Origin: Enterobacteria phage KhF1
Reading direction: 5' to 3' (one strand)
Sequence record: KT184313.1
DNA length: 64,000 nt
Every line of letters begins with the position of its first letter. Position 1 is the first letter of the stretch. Of the stretch, positions 5,478-64,000 are shown one piece after another. The translations under genes were made by a program, and so were the position numbers. The notes beneath the pieces were generated by a model that had not been told where the DNA came from, did no database searches, and was given only the letters and a program-made list of their open reading frames with translations.

Positions 5478-8177
5478 ATGGAAAACGTAGATTTTAAAAA
5501 CTTACATTTAGTTGGTGATACAGAAACTGATGGTTTACTCCTTGAGTTCACTAAAGTGCACGTAATGGCCTTTGCAGACTATAAATCTGACGATGAAGAG
5601 CCACCTGTATGGGTCTTTACAGATGAACCTATTCTCGGTCACAAGTACACCAAGTACATCAAGGGTGGCTTACGTGAAGGTATTGAGTTTGCGTTAAAGG
5701 CAAAACGTCTTTGCATCCATAATGGTCTCGGTTATGACTGGTGGGTTTTCAATCACATTGCACCTGATTTATGGAACTTTGATAATCCAAAGTGTAAACC
5801 GTGGAGTAATTTCTTTCAGGATTCTCTTATCCAGTCTCGTGTTCAGTGGATGGATAGACCAACTCCAAAGGGTTATAAAGGTGCTCATGGTTTGGCTGCA
5901 TGGGGTGCTCGTGTTGGTGTTCGTAAACCAGAGATTGAACACTGGGGTGTGTGGAATGCAGAAATCTTCACTCGTGTTGTAGAAGATATCCGTATTAACG
6001 CCAAAACTAAACGGGCACTTGATAACGAGTATCTCAAGCTTAAGAAGTGTGGCATAGACACTTATGAAACTTACATGAGAGCTAAAGAGACATCTTTCTG
6101 GATGAGCCAACAAGCTATCAATGGTTGGAAAGCTGATAAAGAGCTTATGGAGTTTCATGTAAAGGAACTTGACAAGTTGACTAATGAGCTTGCTTCAGAG
6201 GTTGAACCACATCTACCTCCAACTATTAAGACCAAAGGTAAAGTCACTGGAGAAGAGTTTGCAAAAGCTTGGAATGAGTATGTTGAAGCATTTGGTCATG
6301 CAGATGGACTGAAAAGAATTACCAAGTACCCTAAGACGAAGTATCGTCAGCAGGTTCGTAATGGTGAGATGCAGACTTACGCTATCAAACCTTTTGGTAA
6401 ACCAACTACCAAGATTTTCAACATTGAGAAGCGGAACTGCTACACTCCAACTAACACAGTTACTGGAGAAGAGTACAAAGAAGGCTTTGTAGCAATGAAG
6501 GATGCTCGTGCAATTTGCAATGAGTTGAATGCAAAGATTGGTAAGAAATGCAAAGACTGGAAGCCAGTAAAAACAGTCAAAACTGTGAAGTACTATAACA
6601 GCCACGTTGTTAACCACTTTGAACTTGAGTCAAGTCGCTACACAGGATTGATTGATGCACCATATACACCAATTGAGTTTGAAGTTTCTCGTATGACTCA
6701 GGTAGCAGTTGTAAAAGACTACTTGAAATCAGTTGGTTGGATTCCAGATGACTGGAACTACAAGAAAGACTCAGACGGTCGCCCTGTCAAAGTTTGTCGT
6801 TTCAAAGACAATAAAAAGATGATTACAAAACATCCTAAGTGGCAGGAGATGGTAGAACGGTGTGGATTGAGTTATGTCGAGCATGAAGGCGTCCAGTACA
6901 TCGAGCATAACTGGTCTGTGAAGAAGTACACAGATTTGCTTGAACCTTGCTTAATCCGTACTTCACCAAAACTTACGGAATCATCTTATGATACGATTGA
7001 AGGTGAGCTTGGACAGAAGATTGCTAAGTACTATACTTTGATGCACAGACGCAGAACTATTGAGAACTCAAAGGATGATGAAAAAGGTTGGTTGAACCAG
7101 ATTCGTCCTGATGGTCGCCTTAGTGCTGGCGCAATGGTGTTTGGTACTTCAACTGGACGTATGACACAATATGGTATTGTAAACGTACCGTCTGGTGCTG
7201 CTGTCTATGGGGAACCAATGAGGGCAGTGTGGATTTGTGAGGAAGGTACTAACGTTGTCTCTGTAGATATGAACTCAGCCCAGCTAGTTCTTCTTTGTAA
7301 CTTTATGGGTGATAAAGAGTTCACCAAAGCGGTAACGCAAGGTAAAGAAGAGATTGAGTTTATTCGTCAAGAAGATGGACGCTATTACTGCAAACATTTT
7401 GATGAGTACCTCAACCCAGAGATTGATAAGTACCTTCGCTATGACTCTGAGAATGACCTGTACGTTGTCTATTCAGGGACTGATGCACATACACTGAACA
7501 GTATTTACTTTAGCTTGAATGATGAGCAGGACATCTTGACTTGTCGAGCTACTCAGGATGAGAATCTTCTTCATGAGATTAGTAAAGGTCGTAAGAAAGC
7601 TAAGAATGGTATCTATGCACTGCTGTTCGGTGCAGGGGATGAGAAGTTTGCTAAGACGATTAAAGCTGCAACTACTCAGGAAGGTGCACTGACTAAACAA
7701 ACTTACTTTATTCGTTTGCCTAAAATTAAGAAGCTACTAGATGACTTGGAAGCTGACTACAAAGCAACTAAAAAGGCACTTGAAGAGGTGTTTGGTAAGA
7801 CTGCTGCAATCTCTAAAGGGGGTTTTGTAAAGGTTGCTGGAGCTTGGTTGTGGTGTAAATCTCCACACAAACTGTTGAACTACCTTTTGATGGGTTCAGA
7901 GGCCCAGATTCAAAATGAGGCAATTAACCTTGCTTGTCGTCGCATGATTGACGAAGGGTTGATGAAGCTAAATGGGCGTAAACCAGCTATAGGTGCTCGC
8001 TTATTGTGCGCATATCACGATGAGACTAGCTGGGAATGTCCAGAGAGTATGACGGCAGAAGTAAAAGCAGTTACTGATTGGTATTACGGGCAAGCTTCTA
8101 AGAACTTAGGTCTTAAGAAAGAAACACTTGTAACTGGTACAGGTAAGGTTGGAAAGAGTTGGCTTGAGGTTCACTGA
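5478..8177 (+). CDS. DNA polymerase, family A, with 3'-5' exonuclease domain
   Basis: Exo motif VGDTETDGL; Pol A motif B RKKAKNGIYALLFGAG; motif C YHDE; start set to ATG at 5478 after GAGGGAG SD. Confidence 0.9.
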   Translation: MENVDFKNLHLVGDTETDGLLLEFTKVHVMAFADYKSDDEEPPVWVFTDEPILGHKYTKYIKGGLREGIEFALKAKRLCIHNGLGYDWWVFNHIAPDLWNFDNPKCKPWSNFFQDSLIQSRVQWMDRPTPKGYKGAHGLAAWGARVGVRKPEIEHWGVWNAEIFTRVVEDIRINAKTKRALDNEYLKLKKCGIDTYETYMRAKETSFWMSQQAINGWKADKELMEFHVKELDKLTNELASEVEPHLPPTIKTKGKVTGEEFAKAWNEYVEAFGHADGLKRITKYPKTKYRQQVRNGEMQTYAIKPFGKPTTKIFNIEKRNCYTPTNTVTGEEYKEGFVAMKDARAICNELNAKIGKKCKDWKPVKTVKTVKYYNSHVVNHFELESSRYTGLIDAPYTPIEFEVSRMTQVAVVKDYLKSVGWIPDDWNYKKDSDGRPVKVCRFKDNKKMITKHPKWQEMVERCGLSYVEHEGVQYIEHNWSVKKYTDLLEPCLIRTSPKLTESSYDTIEGELGQKIAKYYTLMHRRRTIENSKDDEKGWLNQIRPDGRLSAGAMVFGTSTGRMTQYGIVNVPSGAAVYGEPMRAVWICEEGTNVVSVDMNSAQLVLLCNFMGDKEFTKAVTQGKEEIEFIRQEDGRYYCKHFDEYLNPEIDKYLRYDSENDLYVVYSGTDAHTLNSIYFSLNDEQDILTCRATQDENLLHEISKGRKKAKNGIYALLFGAGDEKFAKTIKAATTQEGALTKQTYFIRLPKIKKLLDDLEADYKATKKALEEVFGKTAAISKGGFVKVAGAWLWCKSPHKLLNYLLMGSEAQIQNEAINLACRRMIDEGLMKLNGRKPAIGARLLCAYHDETSWECPESMTAEVKAVTDWYYGQASKNLGLKKETLVTGTGKVGKSWLEVH

Positions 8178-8795: not shown

Positions 8796-9056
8796 GTGAA
8801 CAATAAGGTTAAGAGTTGTGTGAAAGCAATGGTTGCACTTGGAGTAATTTTTCTGGCTGGCTGTAACCCATCTTATGAAAACAAAGATGCCTCTTACAGC
8901 CTCCCTCCAGAGATGCAAGACTGCAAAATCTACAAACTCAATGGGGATGCTATAAGCAGGGATATTGTTGTTGTCAGATGCCCAAACTCTCAAACAACAA
9001 CATCTTATAGATATGGCAAAAATGGTCAATCACACACTACTGTTATTGATGGATGA
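8796..9056 (+). CDS. putative lipoprotein
   Basis: Signal peptide with lipobox-like LAGC (MVALGVIFLAGCNPS). Confidence 0.5.
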   Translation: MNNKVKSCVKAMVALGVIFLAGCNPSYENKDASYSLPPEMQDCKIYKLNGDAISRDIVVVRCPNSQTTTSYRYGKNGQSHTTVIDG

Positions 9057-9063
9057 GACTAAT

Positions 9064-9270
9064 ATGCAAGTTTTAGTACACTATATCTACTGCTACGATG
9101 TTGTTTATTCCACTGCAACCGTGGCCCAACGTAACCCAATCGTACCGCGAGAAGGTGAATTGGTTCGCATTGAGGGTTGGACTTACACTGTGGAAAACAT
9201 CATTCATAAGTTTGATGTTGCTGGTGATGTTCAAGTTATTGACGTAGAGATTGTTGGTAAGAGAAAATGA
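9064..9270 (+). CDS. hypothetical protein
   Basis: ORF track; start moved to first ATG after upstream stop. Confidence 0.4.
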   Translation: MQVLVHYIYCYDVVYSTATVAQRNPIVPREGELVRIEGWTYTVENIIHKFDVAGDVQVIDVEIVGKRK

Positions 9271-54519: not shown

Positions 54520-55068
54520 ATGGAAAAAGATAACTTAAAAGAAGTTGAAGGTAACTACTTAGTACTTGACTGGAAGGATGTTCGGGAAGCACTCTCCGAA
54601 GAAAATCTTGACTGGTTCGAACAAATTATCTTTGCAGTACGGCATAACAGAGAAGTTGAAAATGGTAAAGAGCCACTTGAAGGAATCTTTGTAGAAAGGT
54701 CTTATCCGTTCTATGAAGACACTTTGCAGAAAGTTAAGATGTACTTTAAACAGAAGAACCGTAAAGTGGTCACTATGGTATCTCTTGGTGGACAGAGTAT
54801 GTCTGTGATGGAAGATATCAACCCTAAGAGACCGAGTAAAGGTGTTTGTATAAAAATCACAGGTCATGAAGAGTACATCTCAGTGGATGATTTTAGTATG
54901 TTCTGTAATGGTTCTGCTGTCTTTAATGGGTTTCACTATGATATCCGAGTGTATCCAATCAAGGGAGATGCTGTTATGATGCAGATGTTCGATAACAATA
55001 ATGGATTTACTCATTTTTATCAGACAACCAAGTCATCATTAAAAACAGTTCTGGAAACACTGATTTAA
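54520..55068 (+). CDS. hypothetical protein
   Basis: ORF track; start moved to ATG at 54520 after upstream stop. Confidence 0.45.
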   Translation: MEKDNLKEVEGNYLVLDWKDVREALSEENLDWFEQIIFAVRHNREVENGKEPLEGIFVERSYPFYEDTLQKVKMYFKQKNRKVVTMVSLGGQSMSVMEDINPKRPSKGVCIKITGHEEYISVDDFSMFCNGSAVFNGFHYDIRVYPIKGDAVMMQMFDNNNGFTHFYQTTKSSLKTVLETLI

Positions 55069-55087
55069 AATATCTTAAGAGCCTCCT

Positions 55088-55116
55088 TAATTGGGGGCTT
55101 TTTATTGAGTAAAATT
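55088..55116 (+). terminator. rho-independent terminator closing the plus-strand operon
   Basis: GAGCCTCC...GGGGGCT hairpin followed by TTTTTATT. Confidence 0.6.
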
Positions 55117-55119
55117 TAC

Positions 55120-56600
55120 GAAATTTATATTTTTTATAAAATTTTATCGGTTGTCCCAACCCCTGGGTCACCATTATATGTGAACAAAATATCTACCCTT
55201 CTTAACAACCTTCTTAAGCTTACTCTCTATATATAGTTATATAGTACTATATAGTATCTTAGTATCTATCTAGTGGTCTTAATAGCCCTCTGTATAACCC
55301 TTCTAACTAGCCTTCTAACAAGCCTTCTTAACAACCTATACAATCACCTTAACCATCTCTCTATACGCTCTTAGAAGCCTCTATACACCTCTTAATCTCT
55401 AGGTAAGCTATGTGACTCTCTATAGGTGTTCACTAGGTATTACTAAGCCTCTATATAGACTGTTTTAACAAACTTAACAGGAATATCTTTACAGACCTTA
55501 TCTCACAAGGTCTAACACGGTACTAACAAGGTATCTTATAAGCCTGTTATTACCTGTATTTTTAAAAGGCTGTATAGGTAATTATTCAGAATCTTAAAAT
55601 TTTTATAAAATAGGACTATCAAGTCATTTTTTAGGGTCTTTGAAGGAACTGAAAAATATCTGTAGAAGATGTATATCTGCTTGGTAGCCCTTAACAACTC
55701 CCTTACAAGTACTTTGCAAAATTTTAAAATATCATTAACAATTCCTTAACAACTCTCTCAAGTTCTTAACATCTCTTCAGAGGTCTTAACAGATTCTTAA
55801 CAGAACTAACAAGGTTGTAACAAGTTCTTAACAGTTGATACATAGGCTTTACAGAATCTTAACAGATGACTAACAAGAGCTAACAAGTTAATTTTTAAGA
55901 GTTATTTTGTTAAGATAATTAACAAGTCTCTAATAAGTGTTTAATCTTTTTAACAAGCTATTAACATGGTCACTACTCTTTTCTTATCGTTCCCTTTCCT
56001 TTCTTAGTGATTCTTTAAACATACCTCTTAAAAGCTCTCTATAGCCCCTTGTAAGCTCTTTTAAGCCTCTTCCTAGTAATTACACCCCAACTGTACAGAT
56101 ACCTCTTTATAAGGCTTTACAGGGGCTTTAAAGGCTATGTCAAAGACTCTTACAAGGTTTTTACGTGGTCTTAACAGAGATTTAACAAGGGGCTAACAAG
56201 TTGCTAACAAGTGCCTTAAAAGCATAACTATGTAGGGATTGTTAAGAAATTGTTAAGAGAATGTTAAGGGGGCTAGCATTTACGTAACTTTTAAGCAACT
56301 TCAAAGTAACTTTATAGCCCCTATAACATACTTTTAAGACACTAACAAGCCCTTTTTAGATATTCACAAGAATACTAATGAGATGATAAAGCTTACACCC
56401 TTATAAGATTCTTTTAAGTCTCTGGGAAGCTTTATAAAGGGCTTTTAAGGGTGAGGTAATGCAATCCCTTAAGTTAGGTTGATAAGGCTGTTATAGAGCT
56501 TTATAGAGCGTTTAAATGGGCCATCCCCTTTCTGGGGTTATTGGCTTTTATTTAAGTTGATTTGATAAGAGGTTATAGAGTAGACTATAGAGTTATTGTT
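55120..56600. repeat. 1.5 kb non-coding tract dense in degenerate short repeats (CTTAACAA, CTAACAAG, TATAGAG and relatives)
   Basis: No ORF over 60 aa; dozens of TTAACA-containing 8-10-mers seen directly. Confidence 0.7.
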
Positions 56601-56727
56601 TTTAAGGTCTGATAAGATTCTGGAAAGGAAAGGAAAAGGATTGTATAGAGGCTATTACATAGACGTAAAAAGCCCCATTTTAAGGGGCTGTTCAGGTATC
56701 TGGGGCTATTTAGCCCCGTTGCGTCGA

Positions 56728-56976
56728 TTAGTTATAATCTTGTTTGTTGTAGTACAGGGAGACGATTTTTTCTCCCCAATAGTGATAAGTATAACCATCC
56801 TTGAGAACTTCTTGTTTTGTTTCCTCCCAGAACTCATCCGAAGGATTATAATCTTTGATGGTCTGACTGATAAGACATTTCACCATTTCAAAGGCGTTAT
56901 CAGTGCCTGCAATGTCAAATTTAACATCCAGAGAGGAAAAACCGAACTCGTTAACAGTAGCGCGGATAGTTGCCAT
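56728..56976 (-). CDS. small early-type hypothetical protein
   Basis: Preceded by conserved type A leader (hairpin + GGAG SD). Confidence 0.55.
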   Translation of the reverse strand: MATIRATVNEFGFSSLDVKFDIAGTDNAFEMVKCLISQTIKDYNPSDEFWEETKQEVLKDGYTYHYWGEKIVSLYYNKQDYN

Positions 56977-57042
56977 TTTTGAATCTCCTAGTTTAAGGGT
57001 TTTATTTAGTGGGGAGGTTATCGCCTCCCGTTGATTAGTAAT
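56977..57042 (-). promoter_or_regulatory. conserved intergenic leader, type A (GGGGAGG hairpin + SD)
   Basis: catttttgaatctcctagtttaagg...tttagtggggaggttatcgcctcccgttgat; contains stop of upstream gene. Confidence 0.6.
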
Positions 57043-57306
57043 TTACTGCATATTGGCGTATGTTGCAAGCCTTTTTTCGTTGTATTTTGTAAGAATCTCA
57101 CAAGATACAACATCATACTTTGTAACAGCGTTGCCTTTATCGAGGTCAAAAAAGCCAAACGCTTTACCATCTTTGAATCCGACAACTTCGTAAGATTCTT
57201 TGATGATTTCACCATTGAACAAATCACTTTCGATACGGTGAAATAATGCTACATCTTCTTTGTCGGTTGCAATTTGTAAAAGTGTGGTTAATTCTACGTT
57301 TTCCAT
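57043..57306 (-). CDS. small early-type hypothetical protein
   Basis: Preceded by type A leader. Confidence 0.55.
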   Translation of the reverse strand: MENVELTTLLQIATDKEDVALFHRIESDLFNGEIIKESYEVVGFKDGKAFGFFDLDKGNAVTKYDVVSCEILTKYNEKRLATYANMQ

Positions 57307-57372
57307 CTTGATAACTCCAGTTTAGGATTTTATTTAGTGGGAAAGGTCATTCCCTCCCCGTTGATTGACAAT
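57307..57372 (-). promoter_or_regulatory. conserved intergenic leader, type A
   Basis: ccagtttaggattttatttagtgggaaaggtcattccctccccgttgattgacaatttacag. Confidence 0.6.
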
Positions 57373-57903
57373 TTACAGACTTTTGATTGTCTCGTCAATA
57401 TCTTTTTCAATATCTTTTAAAGTTTTTTCTAAGTTCTTGATATTGAACGTTAAACCTTCACCAAGAGTCTTAGAGTAACCACTAGGACGTAAATTATACA
57501 GTTTAATTTCTTCCACTTTAAAGAGGCTAGCTAACTCACCGTTTACATCATAAGCCATTGAAACAGTATTTGCAGGTGCATTGTAAAACTTGTTTAGTGA
57601 CTTGATAGAACGTTCATAAGCCATTTTATAACCGTTTAAAAGGCTTTTAACGTGGTTGTGAACGTTTTTACACTCATCTAGATAAATCTCTAAGAATAAC
57701 GGTAATAATTCCGCTACAGCTTGCATAAAGTGAGAGACTACAACGGTTGAGACATTACGACGATGAACGTAATAAGCCCCGTTTTCTGATTTGGTGATTG
57801 TTGCGAAATGTACCCCATTACAACGAAATTCGTATGTATCTTTTACAGGCTTAGACATTACAGCATTTGAACGAATGAAGTTGATAGCTTGAAATTTGTT
57901 CAT
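57373..57903 (-). CDS. small early-type hypothetical protein
   Basis: Preceded by type A leader. Confidence 0.55.
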   Translation of the reverse strand: MNKFQAINFIRSNAVMSKPVKDTYEFRCNGVHFATITKSENGAYYVHRRNVSTVVVSHFMQAVAELLPLFLEIYLDECKNVHNHVKSLLNGYKMAYERSIKSLNKFYNAPANTVSMAYDVNGELASLFKVEEIKLYNLRPSGYSKTLGEGLTFNIKNLEKTLKDIEKDIDETIKSL

Positions 57904-57975
57904 TTTAGAATCTCCAGTTTAGGACTTTATTTAGTGGGGAGGTCATCCCTCCCGTTGATTAGTAATTTACTTGTT
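57904..57975 (-). promoter_or_regulatory. conserved intergenic leader, type A
   Basis: ccagtttaggactttatttagtggggaggtcatccctcccgttgattagtaatttac; tandem TTGACA -35-like boxes further upstream at about 58060-58095. Confidence 0.55.
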
Positions 57976-58121
57976 TTGATAGCTGATTGCAAGCAATTTT
58001 TTAAGCTTATCTATAAAGAATCTTTTAAGTTAATCCCTTTTAGATAAACCCCCTCGAACAAAGTTACCAATGTCAAGGGGTATTGTCAACACTTTTTTAA
58101 AAGTTTTTTGTAAGTCATTGA

Positions 58122-58463
58122 TTAACTGATGAATATTTTTTCAGGTTTTACATAGCTGATACGCTGACTTTTTAGCAGGTCATCCCAGATTAACGCGGCG
58201 ATATGGGCATAACCGGATTCACGTAAAAGCTTCATTGTTTTACTTCTCGTTTCAAAACGGCTTGCGTAGTACTCACTATTTAAAACCGTTTTATTCCCTT
58301 CGTTATCTGTATGGATGATTTGCATCACTTGAAAGGGGCTGACATCCTCGCCTTTGTTCCACTGCTCAAAGTATTTTAGGCACTGCATAGGTGACATCTT
58401 ATCACTTACTTGAGTTGACCAAGATGAATCTTCTTTATCGGTAATTACAGTTACATAAGCCAT
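58122..58463 (-). CDS. small early-type hypothetical protein
   Basis: Preceded by type A leader. Confidence 0.55.
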   Translation of the reverse strand: MAYVTVITDKEDSSWSTQVSDKMSPMQCLKYFEQWNKGEDVSPFQVMQIIHTDNEGNKTVLNSEYYASRFETRSKTMKLLRESGYAHIAALIWDDLLKSQRISYVKPEKIFIS

Positions 58464-58554
58464 TTTAGAATCTCCTAGTTTAAGGACTTTATTTAGTGGG
58501 GAAGGTCATTCCCTCCCCGTTGATTGACAATTTACAGACTTTTATCAGGCTTGT
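58464..58554 (-). promoter_or_regulatory. conserved intergenic leader, type A
   Basis: cctagtttaaggactttatttagtggggaaggtcattccctccccgttgattgacaatttacagac. Confidence 0.6.
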
Positions 58555-58788
58555 CTAGTCTTTTTCAATGATAATTTCATATTGACCATCGACACTGTCA
58601 AAATAGACGCCGTCTTCATCTTCTGTCTTAAAGTAGCATTGAATATCATCACTGGCGGGATAGTCTTGTCTTGCTATCTGGCAAACTTGAATAGCATTTT
58701 CTTTACTCCCTGTAAACTCCTCAAGCCCTTTAAAATCACATGAATGACCATTACAAATAGAAAGGATAAGATAAACGGTTGTAAGCAT
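58555..58788 (-). CDS. small protein with N-terminal signal-peptide-like segment
   Basis: MLTTVYLILSICNG hydrophobic N-terminus; preceded by variant hairpin AGCCCCT-gtga-GGGGCT. Confidence 0.5.
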   Translation of the reverse strand: MLTTVYLILSICNGHSCDFKGLEEFTGSKENAIQVCQIARQDYPASDDIQCYFKTEDEDGVYFDSVDGQYEIIIEKD

Positions 58789-58854
58789 GATTTAAGCCTC
58801 CTAAAAGCCCCTGTGAGGGGCTAATCAGTGTTTATAAGGTGATTGCATAGGTTT

Positions 58855-59397
58855 TTAGAAAAAACCCTTTAAATCCTCTTCTGCGATGTTTTCTGTCAGT
58901 GTATCCATGATGTCACAAAAAACCTGAATACTGTCCGATTGTTGAACACTTTTAGCAAGTAGTTCTAATGTCTCATCAAGATAGTTCATATTTGGGTTAT
59001 CCAGTGAAGGAAGACAAAAAGGCGAATACATAGCGTTAAACTCTGTTGTATAGACCTTTTTAATCCAATTTATATCAAAATACTCTGTAAAACTTGCTAC
59101 ACTCGACATATTATCACAAGAATAATCGTCGTTTAGTTCAGCCTCTGGAATATCAAGTTCTAGGATAACAATATTTTGTGTCTTCATCTGGAAAGCTGCG
59201 GTGATAGTGGCATTGCCTAAAGCTTGCTGGATACCTTCAGAGATTATTTCTTCCTCATCGTCGCCATAGATTTTATTTTCTGGATACACGTAAAAATTGC
59301 CGTCCATATCCGAACAATTCCATGCGCCTGATGGTTTATCACCGTTATTAATCAGGTTGAGGAAATTTTCTTGAGTAGTTCCGTGATAGCATTTCAT
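58855..59397 (-). CDS. early-type hypothetical acidic protein
   Basis: Preceded by type B leader. Confidence 0.55.
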   Translation of the reverse strand: MKCYHGTTQENFLNLINNGDKPSGAWNCSDMDGNFYVYPENKIYGDDEEEIISEGIQQALGNATITAAFQMKTQNIVILELDIPEAELNDDYSCDNMSSVASFTEYFDINWIKKVYTTEFNAMYSPFCLPSLDNPNMNYLDETLELLAKSVQQSDSIQVFCDIMDTLTENIAEEDLKGFF

Positions 59398-59484
59398 TTT
59401 TGAATCTCCTAGTTTAAGGATTTAGTGGTAAAGCTCTTTATCTGGGGCTTACTTTATCGAACTATAAGCCCCTTGTAAAGTACT
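59398..59484 (-). promoter_or_regulatory. conserved intergenic leader, type B (GGGGCTTA...TAAGCCCC hairpin, TAAAGTACTTTA palindrome, SD)
   Basis: tttagtggtaaagctctttatctggggcttactttatcgaactataagccccttgtaaagtactttattt. Confidence 0.6.
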
Positions 59485-59733
59485 TTATTTAACTTTCTTT
59501 GAGAAAATTAGTTTAACTGCAACCGTAGGAACCTCGTCAGCGATTGTAACCAGCATCACTTTTTGAGTGACCAACTTATAACCGTTCTTTGCAGCGTATG
59601 CGGTAAAACGGTTGACATTGTAACTATAAGTTTTTGGTGTGTTATCTGGCATGTGGTAAATGAAAGGTTTACCCAAATTTTCTTCTTGTGTCAATAATCT
59701 ACAGGTATCGGGAATGTTAAAGTAGTTCATCAT
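59485..59733 (-). CDS. small early-type hypothetical protein
   Basis: Preceded by type B leader. Confidence 0.55.
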   Translation of the reverse strand: MMNYFNIPDTCRLLTQEENLGKPFIYHMPDNTPKTYSYNVNRFTAYAAKNGYKLVTQKVMLVTIADEVPTVAVKLIFSKKVK

Positions 59734-59819
59734 TTTTAGAATCTCCAGTTTAGGATTTAGTGGTAAAGCTCTTTATCTGAGGCTTAAGTTATCAACTTTT
59801 AAGCCCCTTGTAAAGTACT
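59734..59819 (-). promoter_or_regulatory. conserved intergenic leader, type B
   Basis: tttaggatttagtggtaaagctctttatctgaggcttaagttatcaacttttaagccccttgtaaagtactttatttg. Confidence 0.6.
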
Positions 59820-60023
59820 TTATTTGTTATTTTTGACAACTTTTAAAACTGCAAGATAGCCTAAGCAATAAGAATCACCGAAGAGAGTCCTACCCATGAA
59901 AGAATCCTCTTTGATATCCTTTGCAGTGACAGTTTTTTCTACGCCGTGGGAAAGGACTATATCACCAACTTTGATATCTTTGATGTGTGTAGTTTCAATG
60001 GTTAAACCATTAATAATAGCCAT
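59820..60023 (-). CDS. small early-type hypothetical protein
   Basis: Preceded by type A leader. Confidence 0.5.
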   Translation of the reverse strand: MAIINGLTIETTHIKDIKVGDIVLSHGVEKTVTAKDIKEDSFMGRTLFGDSYCLGYLAVLKVVKNNK

Positions 60024-60124
60024 TTTGGAATCTCCAGTTTAGGACTTTATTTAGTGGGGAAGGTCATTCCCTCCCCGTTGATGTGTAATTTAATCTATCT
60101 AAAAACCAGTGTCAACAAAATTTT
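60024..60124 (-). promoter_or_regulatory. conserved intergenic leader, type A, with full promoter (TTGACA, 17 nt, TAAATT)
   Basis: Reverse complement reads TGTTGACA-ctggtttttagatagat-TAAATT-acacatcaacGGGGAGGGAATGACCTTCCCC...GGAGATTCCAAAATG. Confidence 0.65.
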
Positions 60125-60529
60125 TTAGAGTTCTGCATAAATTGCATCACAGATATCGCGGAAGTCATGATTAGTCAAATTACGCTGCAACCAAGTGGCG
60201 AAAAAGTCAGCGATTGCAAAGTTAGCATCATACTCGACAGATAGCCACACTTTAACAGCAAATCGGAACATTTTCAAATCTAACTCTTTATTCATTACCT
60301 TAGATTTGCCTAACATGTCGGACATTTCATATTGCGCACCGTCTAGTGTGATACCTGCTGCAACGTCAGCCAATGAATTTTTTACGTTTCCAACGTCTAA
60401 AATAACGCTTTGAATCTTTCCGATAATGTTGTGCAATGTCTCATCAGGCGCTGATGATGTCATAATGTTGATTCGATTAACGGTCAAACGTGCTTTTAAG
60501 GTTGATAATTCACGGTTATTAATAGCCAT
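60125..60529 (-). CDS. early-type hypothetical protein
   Basis: Start set to ATG at 60529 (MAINNRE...); track start is a non-ATG codon inside the leader. Confidence 0.5.
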   Translation of the reverse strand: MAINNRELSTLKARLTVNRINIMTSSAPDETLHNIIGKIQSVILDVGNVKNSLADVAAGITLDGAQYEMSDMLGKSKVMNKELDLKMFRFAVKVWLSVEYDANFAIADFFATWLQRNLTNHDFRDICDAIYAEL

Positions 60530-60615
60530 TTTTAAGTTCTCCAATTTAGGATTGAGTGGTAAAGCTCTTTATCTGGGGCTTAAGATATCAACTCCCAAGC
60601 CCCATGTAAAGTACT
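60530..60615 (-). promoter_or_regulatory. conserved intergenic leader, type B
   Basis: ttaggattgagtggtaaagctctttatctggggcttaagatatcaactcccaagccccatgtaaagtactttaca. Confidence 0.6.
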
Positions 60616-60888
60616 TTACATTAAATGCAGTTTTTTGCCTTTTACTATAATGTAACTCGATGCGCTATTGCTTTGCACATCCTGATAAATTCTGCGCAAA
60701 CGTCCTTCGTAGTGTACTTTCCAACTGGTTGGAATCTTTTTACCGTATCCCGTAGCAGTTTTTTGGAGTCCTGCTACTTGCCAATCTAAGATATGAGTTT
60801 CAGCCTGTAAATCCTCAAAGTGCATGACACCATCTACATAGTGACGTAGTGTGACATTTAAAGTACGACCGTTGTTAGTAGTATACAT
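60616..60888 (-). CDS. small early-type hypothetical protein
   Basis: Preceded by type A leader. Confidence 0.55.
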   Translation of the reverse strand: MYTTNNGRTLNVTLRHYVDGVMHFEDLQAETHILDWQVAGLQKTATGYGKKIPTSWKVHYEGRLRRIYQDVQSNSASSYIIVKGKKLHLM

Positions 60889-60977
60889 TTTGGAATCTCC
60901 AGTTTAGGACTTTATTTAGTGGGGAAGGTCATTCCCCCCCCCGTTGATGTGTAATTTAATCTATCTAAAAACCAGTG
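60889..60977 (-). promoter_or_regulatory. conserved intergenic leader, type A, with TTGACA/TAAATT promoter
   Basis: Near-identical to element at 60024..60124 (hairpin arm has an extra C run). Confidence 0.65.
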
Positions 60978-61310
60978 TCAACAGTTTTGTTTTCGTTTGC
61001 TCAATTCTTGAACAATTACAGCGTAGTAGTCTTTTAAGTCACTGACATTTAAAGCATTTATCAGAGAATTATAATCATCAACTAACTGAAAATCATCTTT
61101 GAAGATGTCACTTATCTGATAGGTTTTCGCTTTGTATCTGAAGCTCATCTCTAGCCGCTTTATTTGCTCATCACTGAGACGCCCTAGAAAGCTCTCTACA
61201 AGGTTATTGCTGACCTGCTGTGTGATTGCCTTATTTGCTAGATTATAGGCTTTATATGCCTTATATAGCGCGAAAATGGCAATGATTGCAGTGATACCAG
61301 TCATTAACAT
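60978..61310 (-). CDS. small membrane protein
   Basis: N-terminal TM helix MLMTGITAIIAIFALY. Confidence 0.5.
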   Translation of the reverse strand: MLMTGITAIIAIFALYKAYKAYNLANKAITQQVSNNLVESFLGRLSDEQIKRLEMSFRYKAKTYQISDIFKDDFQLVDDYNSLINALNVSDLKDYYAVIVQELSKRKQNC

Positions 61311-61600
61311 GGTGTTTCCTCTTTACGTGATACTTTGCCATTTACAGTTATCTCATAGGATTCTAATAAATCGCTTTTAGACTTTACAGGACTTTTAAAA
61401 GTATCATCATAAATATTAACTTGCAATACAGGTTTTTTATATTCCCTGCAACTATTCCATAAGCAAATCACTACACGACGGCCTTTTATTTTGCCGTGTA
61501 ACCATTCCATAACATCATGACTATTTCTTGATGTCTCGATAAAATCAATTTTGTTGAGTAACTTGCTTAGATTTTCACGAACTTTATTCGATAATTTCAT
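61304..61600 (-). CDS. small early-type hypothetical protein
   Basis: Preceded by type B leader; overlaps downstream gene start. Confidence 0.5.
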   Translation of the reverse strand: MKLSNKVRENLSKLLNKIDFIETSRNSHDVMEWLHGKIKGRRVVICLWNSCREYKKPVLQVNIYDDTFKSPVKSKSDLLESYEITVNGKVSRKEETPC

Positions 61601-61690
61601 TTTAGAATCTCCAGTTTAGGGGTTAATTTGATAAAGCTCTTTATCTGGGGCTATCATATCAGCTTGTTAGCCCCGTGTAAAGAGGTCTAT
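61601..61690 (-). promoter_or_regulatory. conserved intergenic leader, type B variant
   Basis: tttaggggttaatttgataaagctctttatctggggctatcatatcagcttgttagccccgtgtaaag. Confidence 0.55.
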
Positions 61691-62203
61691 TTAGTTCTTA
61701 AAGATATTCATCACTGAGTCTTTTAATGATTCCAAACGTTCTAATACTTCAGATTCTGCGTCTGAGTTGTTCACTTCTTCTTTCAGTCTGTCATCTAAAT
61801 CATCGCCGTCACTATAGCACCAATCGAAAGCGTAACCAATATAAAAACTGTCTAAAATTGTTTGACCATTTGCATCGACAACTTTCGCGGCAAGGTTGTA
61901 TTCTGAAGCCTCTAAATCTCTTTCTAATTCTTTCTGTAAGCTTGTGTAAGCCTCTTTTGATGGATTTTCCCGGCCTTGTTTTGCATAGTCACTTGAAAGC
62001 TGTTTAAGGCTGTAATGTAAAGGGATTGCATATTTAAATTCATTACGCTGACAGTTAGGATTTTTAACAGTCACGCCGCCTTGATGGTCATCTGTAAACT
62101 TCCAATTATCAAGATTATGGCTTGCTTCGTAGCAATTAACAGCTTCGTAAATGATGGAAAATTTTTCTTTTACAACTTCAAAGGTAGCGTCTACAGTTTT
62201 CAT
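61691..62203 (-). CDS. early-type hypothetical acidic protein
   Basis: Preceded by type B leader. Confidence 0.55.
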   Translation of the reverse strand: MKTVDATFEVVKEKFSIIYEAVNCYEASHNLDNWKFTDDHQGGVTVKNPNCQRNEFKYAIPLHYSLKQLSSDYAKQGRENPSKEAYTSLQKELERDLEASEYNLAAKVVDANGQTILDSFYIGYAFDWCYSDGDDLDDRLKEEVNNSDAESEVLERLESLKDSVMNIFKN

Positions 62204-62290
62204 TTTTGAATCTCCTAGTTTAAGGATTTAGTGGTAAAGCTCTTTATCTGGGGCTTACTTTATCGAACTATAAGCCCCTTGTAAAGTACT
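62204..62290 (-). promoter_or_regulatory. conserved intergenic leader, type B
   Basis: Same sequence family as 59398..59484. Confidence 0.6.
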
Positions 62291-62584
62291 TTATTTGTTA
62301 ATTTTCAGCTTTGCATAACTTCTCATTGTACGAATGGGGGATGTTAATGCTACGCGTCTAATGTATGCCTTTTTCGTGTATACAGTTGTCTTCCCGATAG
62401 TGTTTACACATGTAAAAAGGTTTATCGGTGAATTTTTTAACTTCAACTGTTTATCAACCTTCACGCCCCACCTTACAGCAGATTGTTTTCCGTTGTCAAC
62501 CACTTTCCCGCATAACTTTTTAGCCATGATACGAGCGTCATCACGAGTCTTTGCGGTAATTACAACGTTTTTGATAATAGCCAT
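62291..62584 (-). CDS. small early-type hypothetical basic protein
   Basis: Start set to ATG at 62584 (MAIIKNV...). Confidence 0.5.
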   Translation of the reverse strand: MAIIKNVVITAKTRDDARIMAKKLCGKVVDNGKQSAVRWGVKVDKQLKLKNSPINLFTCVNTIGKTTVYTKKAYIRRVALTSPIRTMRSYAKLKINK

Positions 62585-62670
62585 TTTTAAGTTCTCCAAT
62601 TTAGGATTTAGTGGTAAAGCTCTTTATCTGGGGCTTACTTTATCGAACTATAAGCCCCTTGTAAAGTACT
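62585..62670 (-). promoter_or_regulatory. conserved intergenic leader, type B
   Basis: Near-identical to 62204..62290. Confidence 0.6.
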
Positions 62671-63054
62671 TTATTTGTTAATTTTGAAGATAGTTACATA
62701 ACCATCGCTGCCGATTATTTGAGATACTCCAGCTTTTTCCACTGAATAGCCCATATTTTCAAGATGATAAACAGCATCATCATAACCATATGCGCCACCC
62801 TGATAACGTCTCTTATCGCATCTTATCAGGTTTTTACCACGTCCTGCAAGTGCATTCAGTACAGCTTTTTCACTTGATAGTGTACCATCTAACATGGTTG
62901 CCGTGTAATGGTTGATTTTATTCCCGTTAATATCATACTTAAAATTGAATGCGTGAACAACAATCAATTTGCCGTTAAATTTTTCATCAAGTGACTTCTC
63001 CAGTGCGTTGCGGAAGTTGTCTTTGTTGATGAATTTCGGTGCACGATAAGCCAT
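62671..63054 (-). CDS. early-type hypothetical protein
   Basis: Preceded by type B leader. Confidence 0.55.
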   Translation of the reverse strand: MAYRAPKFINKDNFRNALEKSLDEKFNGKLIVVHAFNFKYDINGNKINHYTATMLDGTLSSEKAVLNALAGRGKNLIRCDKRRYQGGAYGYDDAVYHLENMGYSVEKAGVSQIIGSDGYVTIFKINK

Positions 63055-63142
63055 TTTTAAATCTCCTAGTTTAAGGGTTAATTTAGTAAAGCTCTTTATC
63101 TGGGGCTTAAGATATCAGCTTTTAAGCCCCCTGTAAAGTACT
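63055..63142 (-). promoter_or_regulatory. conserved intergenic leader, type B
   Basis: tttaagggttaatttagtaaagctctttatctggggcttaagatatcagcttttaagccccctgtaaagtactttatttg. Confidence 0.6.
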
Positions 63143-63364
63143 TTATTTGTCGTAGTAGTAAATCGCTGTCTGCCTTGTAAATTTCTTAGTGTTTCTTGTA
63201 AGGTAGCAATTAGAATTAATAGCCGTTTCTACATAGTTGCAATAGTCGGCTTCTGATATTCTGGACCATACGCCACAAATTTGCATGTAAAAACGTTTTA
63301 CCTTTGTGTTAACGTTAGTTGTAACCATCAATTCACGACTGTAAAGCATTATTTCGCGCTCCAT
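63143..63364 (-). CDS. small early-type hypothetical protein
   Basis: ORF track; overlaps upstream gene end. Confidence 0.45.
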   Translation of the reverse strand: MEREIMLYSRELMVTTNVNTKVKRFYMQICGVWSRISEADYCNYVETAINSNCYLTRNTKKFTRQTAIYYYDK

Positions 63365-63537
63365 TTCTCAAAGAGTTCAGCAGGGAAACGTTCGCTATAC
63401 CCTTTTAAGGAAAAAGTATTATCTTTGTGGATAGCTTCCACCTGATAAACCTTATAAGAGCGTATAGTTAGCATTTTGTAAGAGTATTCGTGCTTAATGT
63501 TAACCTCATCGCCAACTTTAATTTTTCTTGATGCCAT
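63349..63537 (-). CDS. small early-type hypothetical protein
   Basis: Preceded by type A leader. Confidence 0.5.
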   Translation of the reverse strand: MASRKIKVGDEVNIKHEYSYKMLTIRSYKVYQVEAIHKDNTFSLKGYSERFPAELFEKWSAK

Positions 63538-63605
63538 TTTTGAATCTCCAGTTTAGGATTTTATTTAGTGGGGAAGGTCATTCCCTCCCCGTTGATGTAA
63601 ATATT
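63538..63605 (-). promoter_or_regulatory. conserved intergenic leader, type A (first of the array)
   Basis: ccagtttaggattttatttagtggggaaggtcattccctccccgttgatgtaaatattag. Confidence 0.6.
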
Positions 63606-63750
63606 AGATAACCACGTTCAAAGAGTCAATAAAAATTTTAAAAATATTTTTGGCAAAACTGTAATGAAACGGATGCGCACGACTACCACAAAACAGAACG
63701 CAAATCAAGAATTATTTTTCAATCCGCTACAAATTTTTCTATTGACTTTT

Positions 63751-63786
63751 GGGGAGAGGGGGAGTAAGAGGGGGAGAGGGGTTGGG
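63751..63786. repeat. G-rich tract GGGGAGAGGGGGAGTAAGAGGGGGAGAGGGGTTGGG
   Basis: Four G-runs of at least 4 within 36 nt on plus strand. Confidence 0.6.
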
Positions 63787-63805
63787 CTGGCTGTCTATAA
63801 AAACC

Positions 63806-63983
63806 TACCTGCACAATTCTAAAATGATTTTTCTTGCCCGACCTGAGCGGGGTCTGCACGTTTTGAAAATGAAAAAGCTCTTTGGAGATTACCTGCACAG
63901 TTTGAAAATGAATTTTCTCTTTGGAGTTCAAAATTCTCTCTACAGATTTCTCTACAGAGATATACCTGCACAATTCTGAAATG
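63806..63983. repeat. three copies of 21-bp iteron ACCTGCACA(A/G)TT(C/T)T(A/G)AAATGA plus a degenerate fourth
   Basis: Copies at 63806-63826, 63891-63911, 63963-63983; degenerate copy at about 63853-63873. Confidence 0.65.
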
Positions 63984-64000
63984 AAAAAGCCCTCCTTACC

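What the first reader, a model, noticed from the sequence alone, without database searches (positions are those of the whole stretch)
56600..63605. Array of at least 17 small genes, each with its own conserved leader cassette in two hairpin types
Almost every gene in this minus-strand block is preceded by a conserved leader of about 70 nt containing the stop codon of the upstream gene, in some copies a near-consensus promoter (TTGACA, 17 nt, TAAATT), a strong hairpin and a GGAG Shine-Dalgarno. Two families exist: type A with hairpin GGGGAGG-GAAUGAC-CUUCCCC (seven or more copies) and type B with hairpin GGGGCUUA...UAAGCCCC plus the perfect palindrome TAAAGTACTTTA (seven copies). The hairpins are not followed by U-runs, so they look like 5'-leader structures or operators rather than terminators. 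Such uniform per-gene control suggests a co-regulated host-takeover or anti-defence gene set.
Basis: partly seen in the sequence, partly recalled or inferred. Interest (0 to 1): 0.7.

Follow-up and report, generated by a model that had tools for sequence, protein, structure and literature searches.

The report
Portable promoter-hairpin cassettes between phage genes
In a Felix O1-like phage, 14 of 17 small early genes each carry a near-identical promoter, RNA hairpin and ribosome-binding leader, and related phages have gained, lost and swapped genes at these units; T4-type phages have the same kind of element.

Summary
The window is Enterobacteria phage KhF2 (Felixounavirus). On the minus strand between 56.7 and 63.6 kb lie 17 small ORFs of unknown function, and 14 carry a conserved cassette: 7 type A and 7 type B.

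All 14 cassettes, not just some, hold a sigma-70-type promoter (-35, 17 nt, -10).
- **Type A:** the G-rich hairpin starts exactly 10 nt after the -10, so it would sit about 3 nt from the 5' end of the new transcript.
- **Type B:** the hairpin is wrapped around the promoter. It is also the top of a three-helix interrupted stem of about 20 bp. The "perfect palindrome" belongs to this stem and to the -35, and is not an operator.

Covariation and G.U wobbles across four Ounavirinae genera show selection on a sense-strand RNA structure.

Genes are present or absent, and leaders are swapped or chimeric, exactly at cassette boundaries. The block is far more variable than a structural-gene control region.

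This matches the PeSL (promoter-early stem-loop) cassettes of T4-type phages. I found no description of them in Felix O1-like phages, where they are recorded only as direct repeats or as "terminators".

Promoter activity, RNA ends and the hairpins' exact roles are inferred, not shown. Interest is moderate: a new member of a known kind.

The parts
56666..63629 (-). Whole block: about 7 kb with 17 small ORFs, 14 promoter-hairpin-leader cassettes and a terminal intrinsic terminator
63535..63629 (-). Type A cassette, gene K1: -35 TTGACT 63629-63624, -10 TAATAT 63606-63601, hairpin 63590-63570, SD 63549, ATG 63537
60886..60981 (-). Type A cassette, K8: -35 TTGACA 60981-60976, -10 TAAATT 60958-60953, hairpin 60942-60921, ATG 60888
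60021..60115 (-). Type A cassette, K10: -35 TTGACA 60115-60110, -10 TAAATT 60092-60087, hairpin 60076-60056, ATG 60023
58461..58557 (-). Type A cassette, K14: -35 TAGACA 58557-58552, -10 TAAATT 58534-58529, hairpin 58518-58498, ATG 58463
57901..57992 (-). Type A cassette, K15: -35 TTGCAA 57992-57987, -10 TAAATT 57969-57964, hairpin 57953-57936 (6-bp variant), ATG 57903
57304..57398 (-). Type A cassette, K16: -35 TTGACG 57398-57393 (inside the end of K15), -10 TAAATT 57375-57370, hairpin 57359-57339, ATG 57306
56974..57068 (-). Type A cassette, K17: -35 TTGCAA 57068-57063, -10 TAAATT 57045-57040, hairpin 57029-57011, ATG 56976
63052..63145 (-). Type B cassette, K3: three-helix stem from 63145, -35 TTTACA 63137-63132, upper hairpin 63130-63102 with -10 TATCTT 63114-63109 inside it, ATG 63054
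62582..62673 (-). Type B cassette, K4: -35 TTTACA 62665-62660, upper hairpin 62658-62630, -10 TAAAGT 62642-62637, ATG 62584
62201..62293 (-). Type B cassette, K5: -35 62285-62280, upper hairpin 62278-62250, -10 TAAAGT 62262-62257, ATG 62203
61598..61689 (-). Type B cassette, K6 (subtype without the exact palindrome): -35 61681-61676, upper hairpin 61674-61647, -10 TATGAT 61658-61653, ATG 61600
60527..60618 (-). Type B cassette, K9: -35 60610-60605, upper hairpin 60603-60575, -10 TATCTT 60587-60582, ATG 60529
59731..59822 (-). Type B cassette, K11: -35 59814-59809, upper hairpin 59807-59779 (G.U in stem), -10 TAACTT 59791-59786, ATG 59733
59395..59487 (-). Type B cassette, K12: -35 59479-59474, upper hairpin 59472-59444, -10 TAAAGT 59456-59451, ATG 59397
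58803..58822 (-). Short hairpin AGCCCCUCACAGGGGCU followed by UUUU, directly before the SD of K13. It is terminator- or attenuator-like and has no promoter.
   Evidence: wV8 annotates the equivalent site as a terminator
56702..56717 (-). Solo hairpin GGGGCUAAAUAGCCCC after the last gene, flanked by CAAC and AGAUA, with no promoter or leader: a cassette remnant at the 3' end of the last message
56666..56689 (-). Intrinsic terminator that closes the block (AGCCCCUUAAAAUGGGGCU plus a U-run)
63349..63537 (-). ORF K1, 62 aa, PHROG 15633, unknown function
63143..63364 (-). ORF K2, 73 aa, overlaps the end of K1, no cassette
62671..63054 (-). ORF K3, 127 aa, unknown function
62291..62584 (-). ORF K4, 97 aa from the ATG at 62584, unknown function
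61691..62203 (-). ORF K5, 170 aa, acidic C-terminus, unknown function
61304..61600 (-). ORF K6, 98 aa, unknown function
60978..61310 (-). ORF K7, 110 aa, overlaps the end of K6, no cassette
60616..60888 (-). ORF K8, 90 aa, unknown function
60125..60529 (-). ORF K9, 134 aa from the ATG at 60529, unknown function
59820..60023 (-). ORF K10, 67 aa, unknown function
59485..59733 (-). ORF K11, 82 aa, unknown function
58855..59397 (-). ORF K12, 180 aa; the predicted fold resembles ADP-ribosyltransferases, with an invariant N-terminal H-G-T
58555..58788 (-). ORF K13, 77 aa, unknown function
58122..58463 (-). ORF K14, 113 aa, unknown function
57373..57903 (-). ORF K15, 176 aa, unknown function
57043..57306 (-). 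ORF K16, 87 aa, unknown function
56728..56976 (-). ORF K17, 82 aa, unknown function

Best explanation
The leaders are composite, portable regulatory cassettes of the PeSL (promoter-early stem-loop) kind. Each holds the stop codon of the gene before it, a host sigma-70 promoter, a G-run/C-run stem-loop that acts in the sense RNA, and a shared ribosome-binding leader (ACUAAAU..CCUAAACUGGAG, 8-9 nt, AUG).

**Shown from sequence and comparison**
- The parts and their fixed geometry.
- Selection for base pairing on the sense strand.
- Confinement to one hypervariable 7-kb block of ORFs with no known function.
- Gene gain, loss and leader swapping at the cassettes.

**Inferred**
1. Each gene is transcribed early from its own promoter by host RNA polymerase.
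2. In type A the transcript starts about 7-8 nt after the -10. The hairpin then lies about 3 nt from the 5' end and protects the message from 5'-end-dependent decay.
3. In type B the 5' arm lies in the promoter spacer, the -10 in the loop and the 3' arm over the start site. The complete three-helix stem of about 20 bp therefore exists only in RNA arriving from upstream. It marks, protects or processes the 3' end of that upstream message, as a brake on polymerase, a block to 3' exonucleases or an RNase III-type target. The embedded promoter then restarts transcription for the next gene.
4. The 60-100 bp of near-identical sequence at every gene boundary is the substrate for homologous recombination that shuffles single genes, each already equipped with its own expression signals.
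For: **Promoter geometry**
- All 14 copies have -35/17 nt/-10. The hairpin offset is +10 from the -10 in 7 of 7 type A copies and +2 from the -35 in 7 of 7 type B copies.
- The same type A geometry (-35, 17 nt, -10, 10 nt, hairpin) holds in Mooglevirus and Suspvirus.
- In type B, the T, A and T of the -10 are invariant in 58 of 58 distinct copies from four genera, while the rest of the loop varies.

**RNA structure, type B**
- The three-helix fold is the minimum-energy structure in 69 of 70 distinct copies. Energies are -21.6 to -25.1 kcal/mol with z-scores of -4 to -6.
- 92.9% of cells are paired, against 32-61% when the partners are slid. The covariation score is 0.145 against 0.078 in shuffles (0 of 500 shuffles reach it).
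- G:C changes to U:A at pair 18:45 in all 8 Kolesnikvirus copies and at 5:58 in 7 copies. U:A changes to A:U at 1:62 in 3 copies. A U.G wobble occupies 20:42 in 26 of 58 copies; it pairs only in the sense strand.

**RNA structure, type A**
- 32 distinct hairpins occur in 71 copies. They include A:U to C:G swaps, one G:C to U:A swap, GNRA tetraloops and sense-only G.U pairs. The commonest form folds at -13.7 kcal/mol in sense against -10.3 in antisense.

**Distribution**
- The promoter + hairpin + SD architecture occurs only between 56.9 and 63.6 kb of the 88-kb genome.
- Only 8 of 256 related phage records cover at least 80% of the block. A same-size structural-gene control is covered that well in 249 of 300 records.

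**Shuffling**
- Felix O1 has about 10 genes in this block where KhF2 has 17.
- Single genes come and go at cassette boundaries. K3, K11 and K14 carry type A in some phages and type B in others.
- Hairpin alleles and SD alleles reassort for the same gene, and chimeric leaders sit at deletion junctions.

**Literature**
- The PeSL description matches point for point (PMC2839356; PMC4122927).
- RT-PCR in Felix O1 puts ORFs 16, 20, 21 and 22 of this block at 5 min after infection (PMC3185647).
Against: - No transcript ends have been mapped for any Felixounavirus in the library searched. Promoter activity, start sites and the fate of read-through RNA are all inferred.
- Much of the covariation comes from a few lineage-level events. 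For example, all 8 U:A pairs at 18:45 are in one genus, so the number of independent events is small.
- One copy (BPS17W1) has a non-compensating T.T at 20:42.
- Felix O1 RT-PCR places ORFs 17, 19 and 23 of the block at 25 min rather than 5 min, so expression is not uniformly early.
- PeSL stem-loops were reported to terminate transcription in a reporter assay. These hairpins have no U-tract, so the same role cannot be assumed.
- The Felix O1 paper's promoter search (neural-network prediction, intergenic sites only) did not list these sites.
Confidence: 0.7

Rival explanations
1. The block is one polycistronic message started upstream, and the elements are purely intercistronic RNA processing or stability signals. 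Type B would be an RNase III site like those between T7 early genes; type A would be a barrier hairpin. The promoter-like hexamers would be incidental to an AT-rich sequence.
For: - The type B stem is an interrupted helix of about 20-22 bp with a 3x3 internal loop, set between genes. That is the general shape of RNase III substrates.
- Pairing is selected on the sense strand.
- The CUUUA of the -35 is itself part of a helix, which could explain its conservation.
Against: - The T, A and T of the -10 are invariant in an otherwise variable, unpaired loop, at 17-18 nt from TTTACA, in four genera. An RNA-only role does not explain this.
- Type A keeps the series -35, 17 nt, -10, 10 nt, hairpin even though the spacer and the -35 sequence differ between copies and genera.
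- The -35 of K16 is kept inside the coding end of K15.
Confidence: 0.12
2. The hairpins are rho-independent terminators or attenuators that isolate each gene, as several GenBank records annotate them.
For: - ASO1A, KhF2 and wV8 annotate some of them as terminators.
- One PeSL stem-loop cut lacZ expression about as strongly as rrnB T1 in a reporter.
Against: - None of the 14 hairpins is followed by a U-run, and the scan finds only the terminal terminator on this strand.
- A type A hairpin acting as an efficient terminator 10 nt after its own -10 would abort every transcript of the gene it precedes.
- KhF2 places the type A 'terminators' on the opposite strand, where the G.U pairs become A.C mismatches.
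Confidence: 0.08
3. The dyad sequences (TAAAGTACTTTA, TAAAGAGCTTTA, GGGGCTTA..TAAGCCCC) are DNA operators for a dimeric phage or host regulator that switches the whole gene set on or off together.
For: - The two TAAAG-N2-CTTTA dyads flank the type B promoter, one overlapping the -35 and one just after the predicted start. That is a classic repressor layout.
- The 3' sequence CCCCAGATAAAGAGCTTTA is nearly invariant.
Against: - The local-dyad model shows no compensating change and 12-13 broken cells at each varying position.
- The same changes are compensated in the long-range partner.
- The U.G at 20:42 in 26 of 58 copies breaks DNA symmetry but keeps RNA pairing.
- Type A cassettes lack these dyads although they drive the same kind of genes.
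Confidence: 0.06
4. The repeats are selfish or neutral repeated DNA (REP- or MITE-like) that spread through intergenic gaps and have no role in expression.
For: There are many near-identical copies, and their distribution between related phages is patchy.
Against: - Every copy has one orientation and one register relative to the downstream start codon, and it supplies that gene's SD.
- The geometry is conserved across genera whose proteins are only 40-80% identical.
- Pairing is maintained by compensating changes.
- No copy lies outside gene starts.
Confidence: 0.04

Closest known systems
PeSL (promoter-early stem-loop) cassettes of T4-type phages RB49/phi1, T4/PST and KVP40/nt-1 (Arbiol et al. 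2010, PMC2839356; Comeau et al. 2014, PMC4122927)
   Same: [quoted passage not shown]
- A sigma-70-like early promoter. The T4/PST consensus TTTACW-N17-TAYWAT is close to type B here.
- A G-run/C-run stem-loop with G-T pairs, placed between -35 and -10, over the -10, or just after the -10.
- Clustering in hyperplastic regions next to ORFans.
- Indels and replacements between close relatives bounded by the elements.
   Different: - The host phage belongs to Ounavirinae, not the T4 group, and blastn finds the cassettes only in Ounavirinae.
- There are only two rigid layouts.
- The type B stem extends into a three-helix structure of about 20 bp that covaries across four genera.
- All cassettes share one translation-initiation module.
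- All copies lie in a single 7-kb block.
- Promoter or terminator activity and mini-circles have not been tested here.
RNase III processing sites between the early genes of phage T7 (from my own knowledge of T7 biology; not tested here)
   Same: An intercistronic interrupted hairpin of about two helical turns with an internal loop, in a block of early genes. Cleavage would leave a protective hairpin at the 3' end of the upstream message.
   Different: - No Rfam family matched at E-value up to 1, and cleavage is untested.
- T7 sites do not contain promoters.
- The type A hairpin (6-8 bp) is too short to be such a site.
5'-terminal stabilising stem-loops such as the ompA 5' UTR hairpin (from my own knowledge)
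   Same: A stable hairpin within a few nucleotides of the predicted 5' end of the transcript. Type A has 10 nt between the -10 and the stem, so about 3 unpaired nt.
   Different: The start site is only predicted. Here the element is repeated at seven genes and is part of a recombining cassette.
Direct repeats already recorded in Felix O1 (57-bp and 39-bp repeats, PMC3185647) and wV8 (GenBank DR_1 to DR_9)
   Same: These are the same sequences: CTTTACATGGGGCTTAAAAGTCTGTAAAGTAAGCCCCAGATAAAGAGCTTTACCACT and TTGACACTGGTTTTTAGATAGATTAAATTACACATCAAC.
   Different: They were recorded only as repeats. No promoter, RNA structure or role in gene shuffling was proposed, and the Felix O1 paper states that how transcription is organised is not known.

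Membership tests
PeSL cassettes (T4-type phages) | Sigma-70-like early promoter (-35, about 17 nt, -10) in each element | tested here: met
   All 14 copies meet this at sequence level. The -10 TA...T is invariant in 58 of 58 diverged type B copies. Promoter activity itself was not testable.
PeSL cassettes (T4-type phages) | Stable stem-loop, typically G-run/C-run with G-T pairs, placed within or just after the promoter | tested here: met
   Type B stem: 5' arm in the spacer, -10 in the loop. Type A stem: 10 nt after the -10. Folding and covariation.
PeSL cassettes (T4-type phages) | [quoted passage not shown] | tested here: met
   each cassette contains or abuts the stop codon and ends in GGAG, 8-9 nt, ATG.
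PeSL cassettes (T4-type phages) | Concentrated in hyperplastic regions next to ORFans | tested here: met
   The architecture is found only between 56.9 and 63.6 kb. Only 8 of 256 records cover at least 80% of the block, against 249 of 300 for the control. None of the 17 proteins has a Pfam hit above threshold or an assigned function.
PeSL cassettes (T4-type phages) | Indels and replacements between close relatives are bounded by the elements; chimeric elements sit at junctions | tested here: met
   K11 is deleted with a K11/K12 chimeric leader in Seyj1-1 and MBP469. The K1 leader is fused to K3 in ULIM3, EcoM2 and wV8. Leader type switches for K3, K11 and K14.
PeSL cassettes (T4-type phages) | Stem-loop acts as a transcription terminator or attenuator | not testable with these tools
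   At sequence level the hairpins lack a U-tract, so function cannot be judged here.
PeSL cassettes (T4-type phages) | Recombination between elements yields encapsidated mini-circles | not testable with these tools
   Needs inverse PCR on infected cells.
PeSL cassettes (T4-type phages) | Occurs in a T4-type myovirus (the circumscription in both papers) | tested here: not met
   The window is a Felixounavirus in Ounavirinae, and blastn finds the cassettes only in Ounavirinae. This is a taxonomic limit of the original description, not a functional criterion.
Intrinsic (rho-independent) terminator | GC-rich hairpin immediately followed by a U-tract | tested here: not met
   None of the 14 cassette hairpins passes the scan. 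Only 56689-56671 does.
RNase III processing site (T7 early type) | Helix of about 20 bp or more, often with an internal loop, between cistrons | tested here: inconclusive
   Type B is predicted to form 19-22 bp in three helices. Type A is too short. No sequence rule was tested, and Rfam gave 0 hits.
RNase III processing site (T7 early type) | Cleavage by host RNase III | not testable with these tools
   Needs an rnc mutant or an in vitro cleavage assay.
Operator for a dimeric DNA-binding regulator | Dyad symmetry maintained in both half-sites across homologous copies | tested here: not met
   The local-dyad model shows 0 compensating changes and 12-13 broken cells at each varying pair. The U.G at 20:42 breaks DNA symmetry in 26 of 58 copies.

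The most novel reading that the evidence does not exclude
The type B element is a dual-coded sequence. On DNA it is a promoter. On read-through RNA the same 60 nt fold into a conserved three-helix stem. Ending or processing the upstream message would then be physically coupled to re-initiation for the next gene, with the hairpin recognised by a dedicated phage or host factor (RNase III or a phage protein). In this reading the cassettes also work as an integron-like platform for acquiring genes across Ounavirinae.
Probability: 0.15. Interest if true: 0.7.

Novelty: new member of a known kind. Interest (0 to 1): 0.45.

Why it matters
- **Open question.** Felix O1-like phages are widely used for Salmonella and E. 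coli typing, biocontrol and therapy. The Felix O1 genome paper states that how their transcription is organised is unknown. Reading these repeats as 14 self-contained promoter, hairpin and leader units gives a concrete, testable map of early transcription.
- **Variability.** It explains why this 7-kb block is the most variable part of otherwise near-identical genomes.
- **Generality.** It extends the "mobile regulatory cassette" mode of phage gene shuffling beyond T4-type phages.
- **Annotation.** Hairpins placed 10 nt after a promoter and lacking a U-tract are currently labelled as terminators in GenBank records.
- **Practical use.** The cassettes are compact, naturally insulated expression parts, and they mark safe insertion points for engineering these phages.

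Tried and rejected
- **Operator reading of the palindrome:** rejected. It shows no local compensation, whereas the long-range pairing is compensated.
- **Intrinsic terminators:** rejected as canonical terminators, because no hairpin has a U-tract.
- **T4 MotA-type middle promoter** (GCTTTA, 11 nt, TAAACT inside the type B leader): considered from the sequence and dropped. A start there would remove the SD from the message.
- **HK022 put-like antitermination RNA for type A:** considered and dropped. There is a single hairpin of 6-8 bp, with no resemblance to the two-stem put sites. This rests on my own knowledge and was not tested.
- **Rfam scan of 55,000-64,000** at E-value up to 1: no match.
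- **Protein searches on the block's ORFs:** Pfam and PHROGs on all 17, PADLOC on 10 of them, and sequence searches of K5, K12 and K15 against solved structures. No functional assignment resulted.
- **Literature searches for a Felixounavirus transcriptome or mapped promoters:** nothing found. The first search was too loose and gave nothing useful.
- **wV8 genome paper:** it does not mention repeats, promoters or terminators in its text.
- **Formal column-wise covariation for type A:** not attempted with the pair-counting tool, because stem length varies. A per-variant fold table was used instead.

Full report
**Identity and context**

The region is 100% identical to Enterobacteria phage KhF2 (KT184314.1), a Felixounavirus of 88.3 kb. 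About 250 related records match it.

The block lies on the minus strand. It begins after a noncoding stretch of about 370 nt that follows the intrinsic terminator of the upstream phosphatase gene. It ends at an intrinsic terminator at 56689-56666. Beyond that lies 1.6 kb without credible ORFs, which separates the block from a convergent transcription unit.

**Check of the observation**

Seventeen ORFs of 62-180 aa lie between 56,728 and 63,537. Printing the 115 nt upstream of each start shows 7 type A leaders, 7 type B leaders and 3 genes without one. Two of those three overlap the preceding gene. The third has its own short hairpin followed by UUUU.

- The exact palindrome is in 6 of 7 type B copies.
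- The type A stem is 8 bp with a 5-nt loop in its commonest form (3 exact copies and 2 one-base variants) and shorter in two copies.
- Every cassette, not just some, contains a promoter-like site.

**Anatomy**

A script located the elements in all 14 copies.

*Type A* reads: -35 (TTGACA, TTGCAA, TAGACA, TTGACG or TTGACT), 17 nt, -10 (TAAATT, once TAATAT), 10 nt ending in CAAC, hairpin, ACUAAAUAAAGUCCUAAACUGGAG, 8-9 nt, AUG. The distance from the -10 to the stem is exactly 10 nt in 7 of 7 copies.

*Type B* reads: stop codon within UAAAG, UA, CUUUACA (containing the -35 TTTACA), 2 nt, hairpin GGGGCUUA..UAAGCCCC, AGAUAAAGAGCUUUAC, then the same leader. The -10 (TAnnnT) sits 17 nt from the -35, inside the loop and 3' arm.

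The independent consensus scan flags 6 of 7 type A and 6 of 7 type B sites.

By the usual spacing of start sites (established knowledge; an inference here), type A transcripts would begin about 3 nt before the stem. Type B transcripts would begin at the 3' foot of the stem, so they would not contain it.

Folding shows three coaxial helices separated by a 1-2-nt interruption and a 3x3 internal loop:
- outer: UAAAG(U) with (G)CUUUA;
- middle: CUUUA with UAAAG;
- upper: 8-13 bp.

Energies are -21.6 to -25.1 kcal/mol, with z-scores of -4 to -6 against shuffles. In some relatives the lower part is a continuous 13-bp helix.

**Comparative test**

I collected the block from 9 more Felixounaviruses, one Mooglevirus, one Suspvirus and two Kolesnikviruses.

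- The three-helix fold is the minimum-energy structure in 69 of 70 distinct type B copies.
- On an alignment of 58 distinct copies, 92.9% of cells pair, against 32-61% when partners are slid. The covariation score is 0.145 against 0.078 for shuffles, and 0 of 500 shuffles reach it.
- Compensating changes: G:C to U:A at 18:45 (8 copies, none unpaired), G:C to U:A at 5:58 (7 copies), U:A to A:U at 1:62 (3 copies).
- A U.G wobble occupies 20:42 in 26 copies. That wobble, and the G.U pairs in type A, pair only in the sense strand. They break DNA dyad symmetry, which points to an RNA structure.
- These counts include inherited changes, so the number of independent events is small.
- The T, A and T of the -10 are invariant in all 58 copies while the surrounding loop varies. 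An RNA-only role does not explain this.

For type A, 32 distinct hairpins occur in 71 copies. All still form a stem, though three are weak (-0.4 to -6 kcal/mol). They show A:U to C:G swaps (GGGA/UCCC against GGGC/GCCC), one G:C to U:A swap, and GAAA or GAGA tetraloops in Mooglevirus and Suspvirus. The series -35, 17 nt, -10, 10 nt, stem is kept in those genera although the spacer sequences differ.

**The palindrome**

A model in which TAAAGUACUUUA and UAAAGAGCUUUA are local dyads shows no compensating change, and 12-13 broken cells at each varying pair. The same substitutions are compensated in the long-range model. The palindrome is therefore a by-product. Its right half is the -35 and part of the middle helix. 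Its left half is the stop codon and part of the outer helix.

**Shuffling**

A gene-by-phage table shows about 10 genes in Felix O1 against 17 in KhF2, with single genes present or absent at cassette boundaries.
- K3 carries a type B leader in KhF2 and a type A leader in ULIM3, EcoM2 and wV8.
- K11 and K14 also switch leader type between phages.
- For one gene (K5) there are five hairpin alleles and three SD alleles in different combinations.
- Where K11 is missing, the K12 leader is a chimera. Its 5' part resembles the KhF2 K11 leader and its 3' part resembles the KhF2 K12 leader, with different crossover points in finno and in Seyj1-1/MBP469.
- In ULIM3 the K1 leader is joined directly to K3.

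**Distribution**

- A genome-wide scan for strong hairpins with promoter geometry, no T-run and an SD-ATG downstream returns only the 14 cassettes.
- A hairpin inside a promoter spacer also occurs between rIIA and rIIB, outside the window.
- Only 8 of 256 related records cover at least 80% of the block. A same-size capsid and tail region is covered that well in 249 of 300 records.
- blastn finds the cassettes only in Ounavirinae. Type B also reaches the Erwinia-infecting Kolesnikviruses.

**Literature**

- The Felix O1 genome paper lists two of these sequences as 57-bp and 39-bp direct repeats, does not count them among its promoters, and says the organisation of transcription is unknown.
- Its RT-PCR places ORFs 16, 20, 21 and 22 of this block at 5 min and ORFs 17, 19 and 23 at 25 min.
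- The wV8 GenBank record marks them DR_1 to DR_9. ASO1A marks type A as a promoter followed within 10 nt by a "terminator". KhF2 marks "terminators" on the opposite strand.
- The PeSL papers on T4-type phages describe intergenic units of about 100 bp with an upstream stop codon, an AT-rich region, a sigma-70 promoter, a GGGG..CCCC stem-loop with G-T pairs in five positions relative to the promoter, and the SD and start codon. These units cluster beside ORFans in hyperplastic regions and mediate indels.
- I found no paper applying this to Felix O1-like phages, and no transcriptome of one.

**Proteins**

None of the 17 has a Pfam hit above threshold. All fall in PHROGs of unknown function, and the 10 scanned against PADLOC gave nothing significant.

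**Mechanism**

Shown: the parts, the geometry, sense-strand pairing under selection, confinement to a hypervariable block, and recombination at the cassettes.

Inferred:
- each gene has its own early host-polymerase promoter;
- the type A stem is a 5'-terminal protective hairpin;
- the type B stem belongs to the 3' end of the upstream message, as attenuator, exonuclease block or RNase III target, while the embedded promoter restarts transcription;
- the repeated cassettes are the homology on which single genes are exchanged.

I put 0.7 on the composite-cassette explanation as a whole and about 0.4 on the specific RNA roles. The rivals are processing-only (0.12), terminators (0.08), operators (0.06) and selfish repeats (0.04).

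**Verdict**

This is a real, well-defined feature. It is a new member of a known kind, namely PeSL-type cassettes outside the T4 group, with a tidier two-layout design and a conserved extended RNA stem. Interest is 0.45.

Noticed in passing
window 55,100-56,700: A 1.6-kb stretch with no credible ORF lies between two convergent transcription units. It is packed with short motifs (CTTAACAAG, CTAACAAG, CTTATAAG, CTTTTAAG, CTCTATAG), often 11 nt apart and in both orientations: 25 direct-repeat families and 47 inverted pairs. The same gap exists in Felix O1 at 12.3-13.9 kb, and finno annotates repeat regions there. It looks iteron-like and could be an origin, a packaging site or a protein-array site.
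   Followed up: partly
window 63,790-64,000: Four to five copies of a repeat of about 22-34 nt (minus strand TCATTTTCAnAAnTGTGCAGGTA), spaced 39-84 nt apart, lie between the terminator of the upstream phosphatase gene and the first type A promoter. Their function is unknown.
   Followed up: partly
[not shown]
   Followed up: partly
L003 about 5,860-5,900 (KhF2 rIIA-rIIB intergenic region, outside the window): TTGACA, then AGGGGCTTCAAAGCCCCT, then TAAAAT: a GGGGC..GCCCC hairpin lies entirely inside a promoter spacer. This is a third promoter-plus-hairpin layout, outside the block.
   Followed up: no
window 57,990-58,120: The 220-nt gap between K14 and K15 holds two overlapping TTGACA hexamers inside a CCCCT..AGGGG inverted repeat. 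It also holds motifs (CTTAAAAG, CTTTATAG, ATAAG) like those of the 1.6-kb noncoding region. ASO1A annotates a promoter and a terminator here.
   Followed up: no
whole window compared with record KT184314.1: The window runs across the ends of the linear GenBank record. It closes into a circle of 87,961 bp, 348 bp shorter than the 88,309-bp record. This may reflect a terminal repeat in the record.
   Followed up: no
L011 about 9,000-9,108 (Erwinia phage Rouille): A true terminator, GGGGGCTTTACAGCCCC followed by a T-run, carries TTTACA in its loop. This suggests that terminators and promoter-hairpin cassettes in these phages may convert into one another.
   Followed up: no
phage-collection hits: One 'Staphylococcus' and one 'Campylobacter' phage record carry these Ounavirinae cassettes. 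They are probably mislabelled or chimeric records rather than real host jumps.
   Followed up: no
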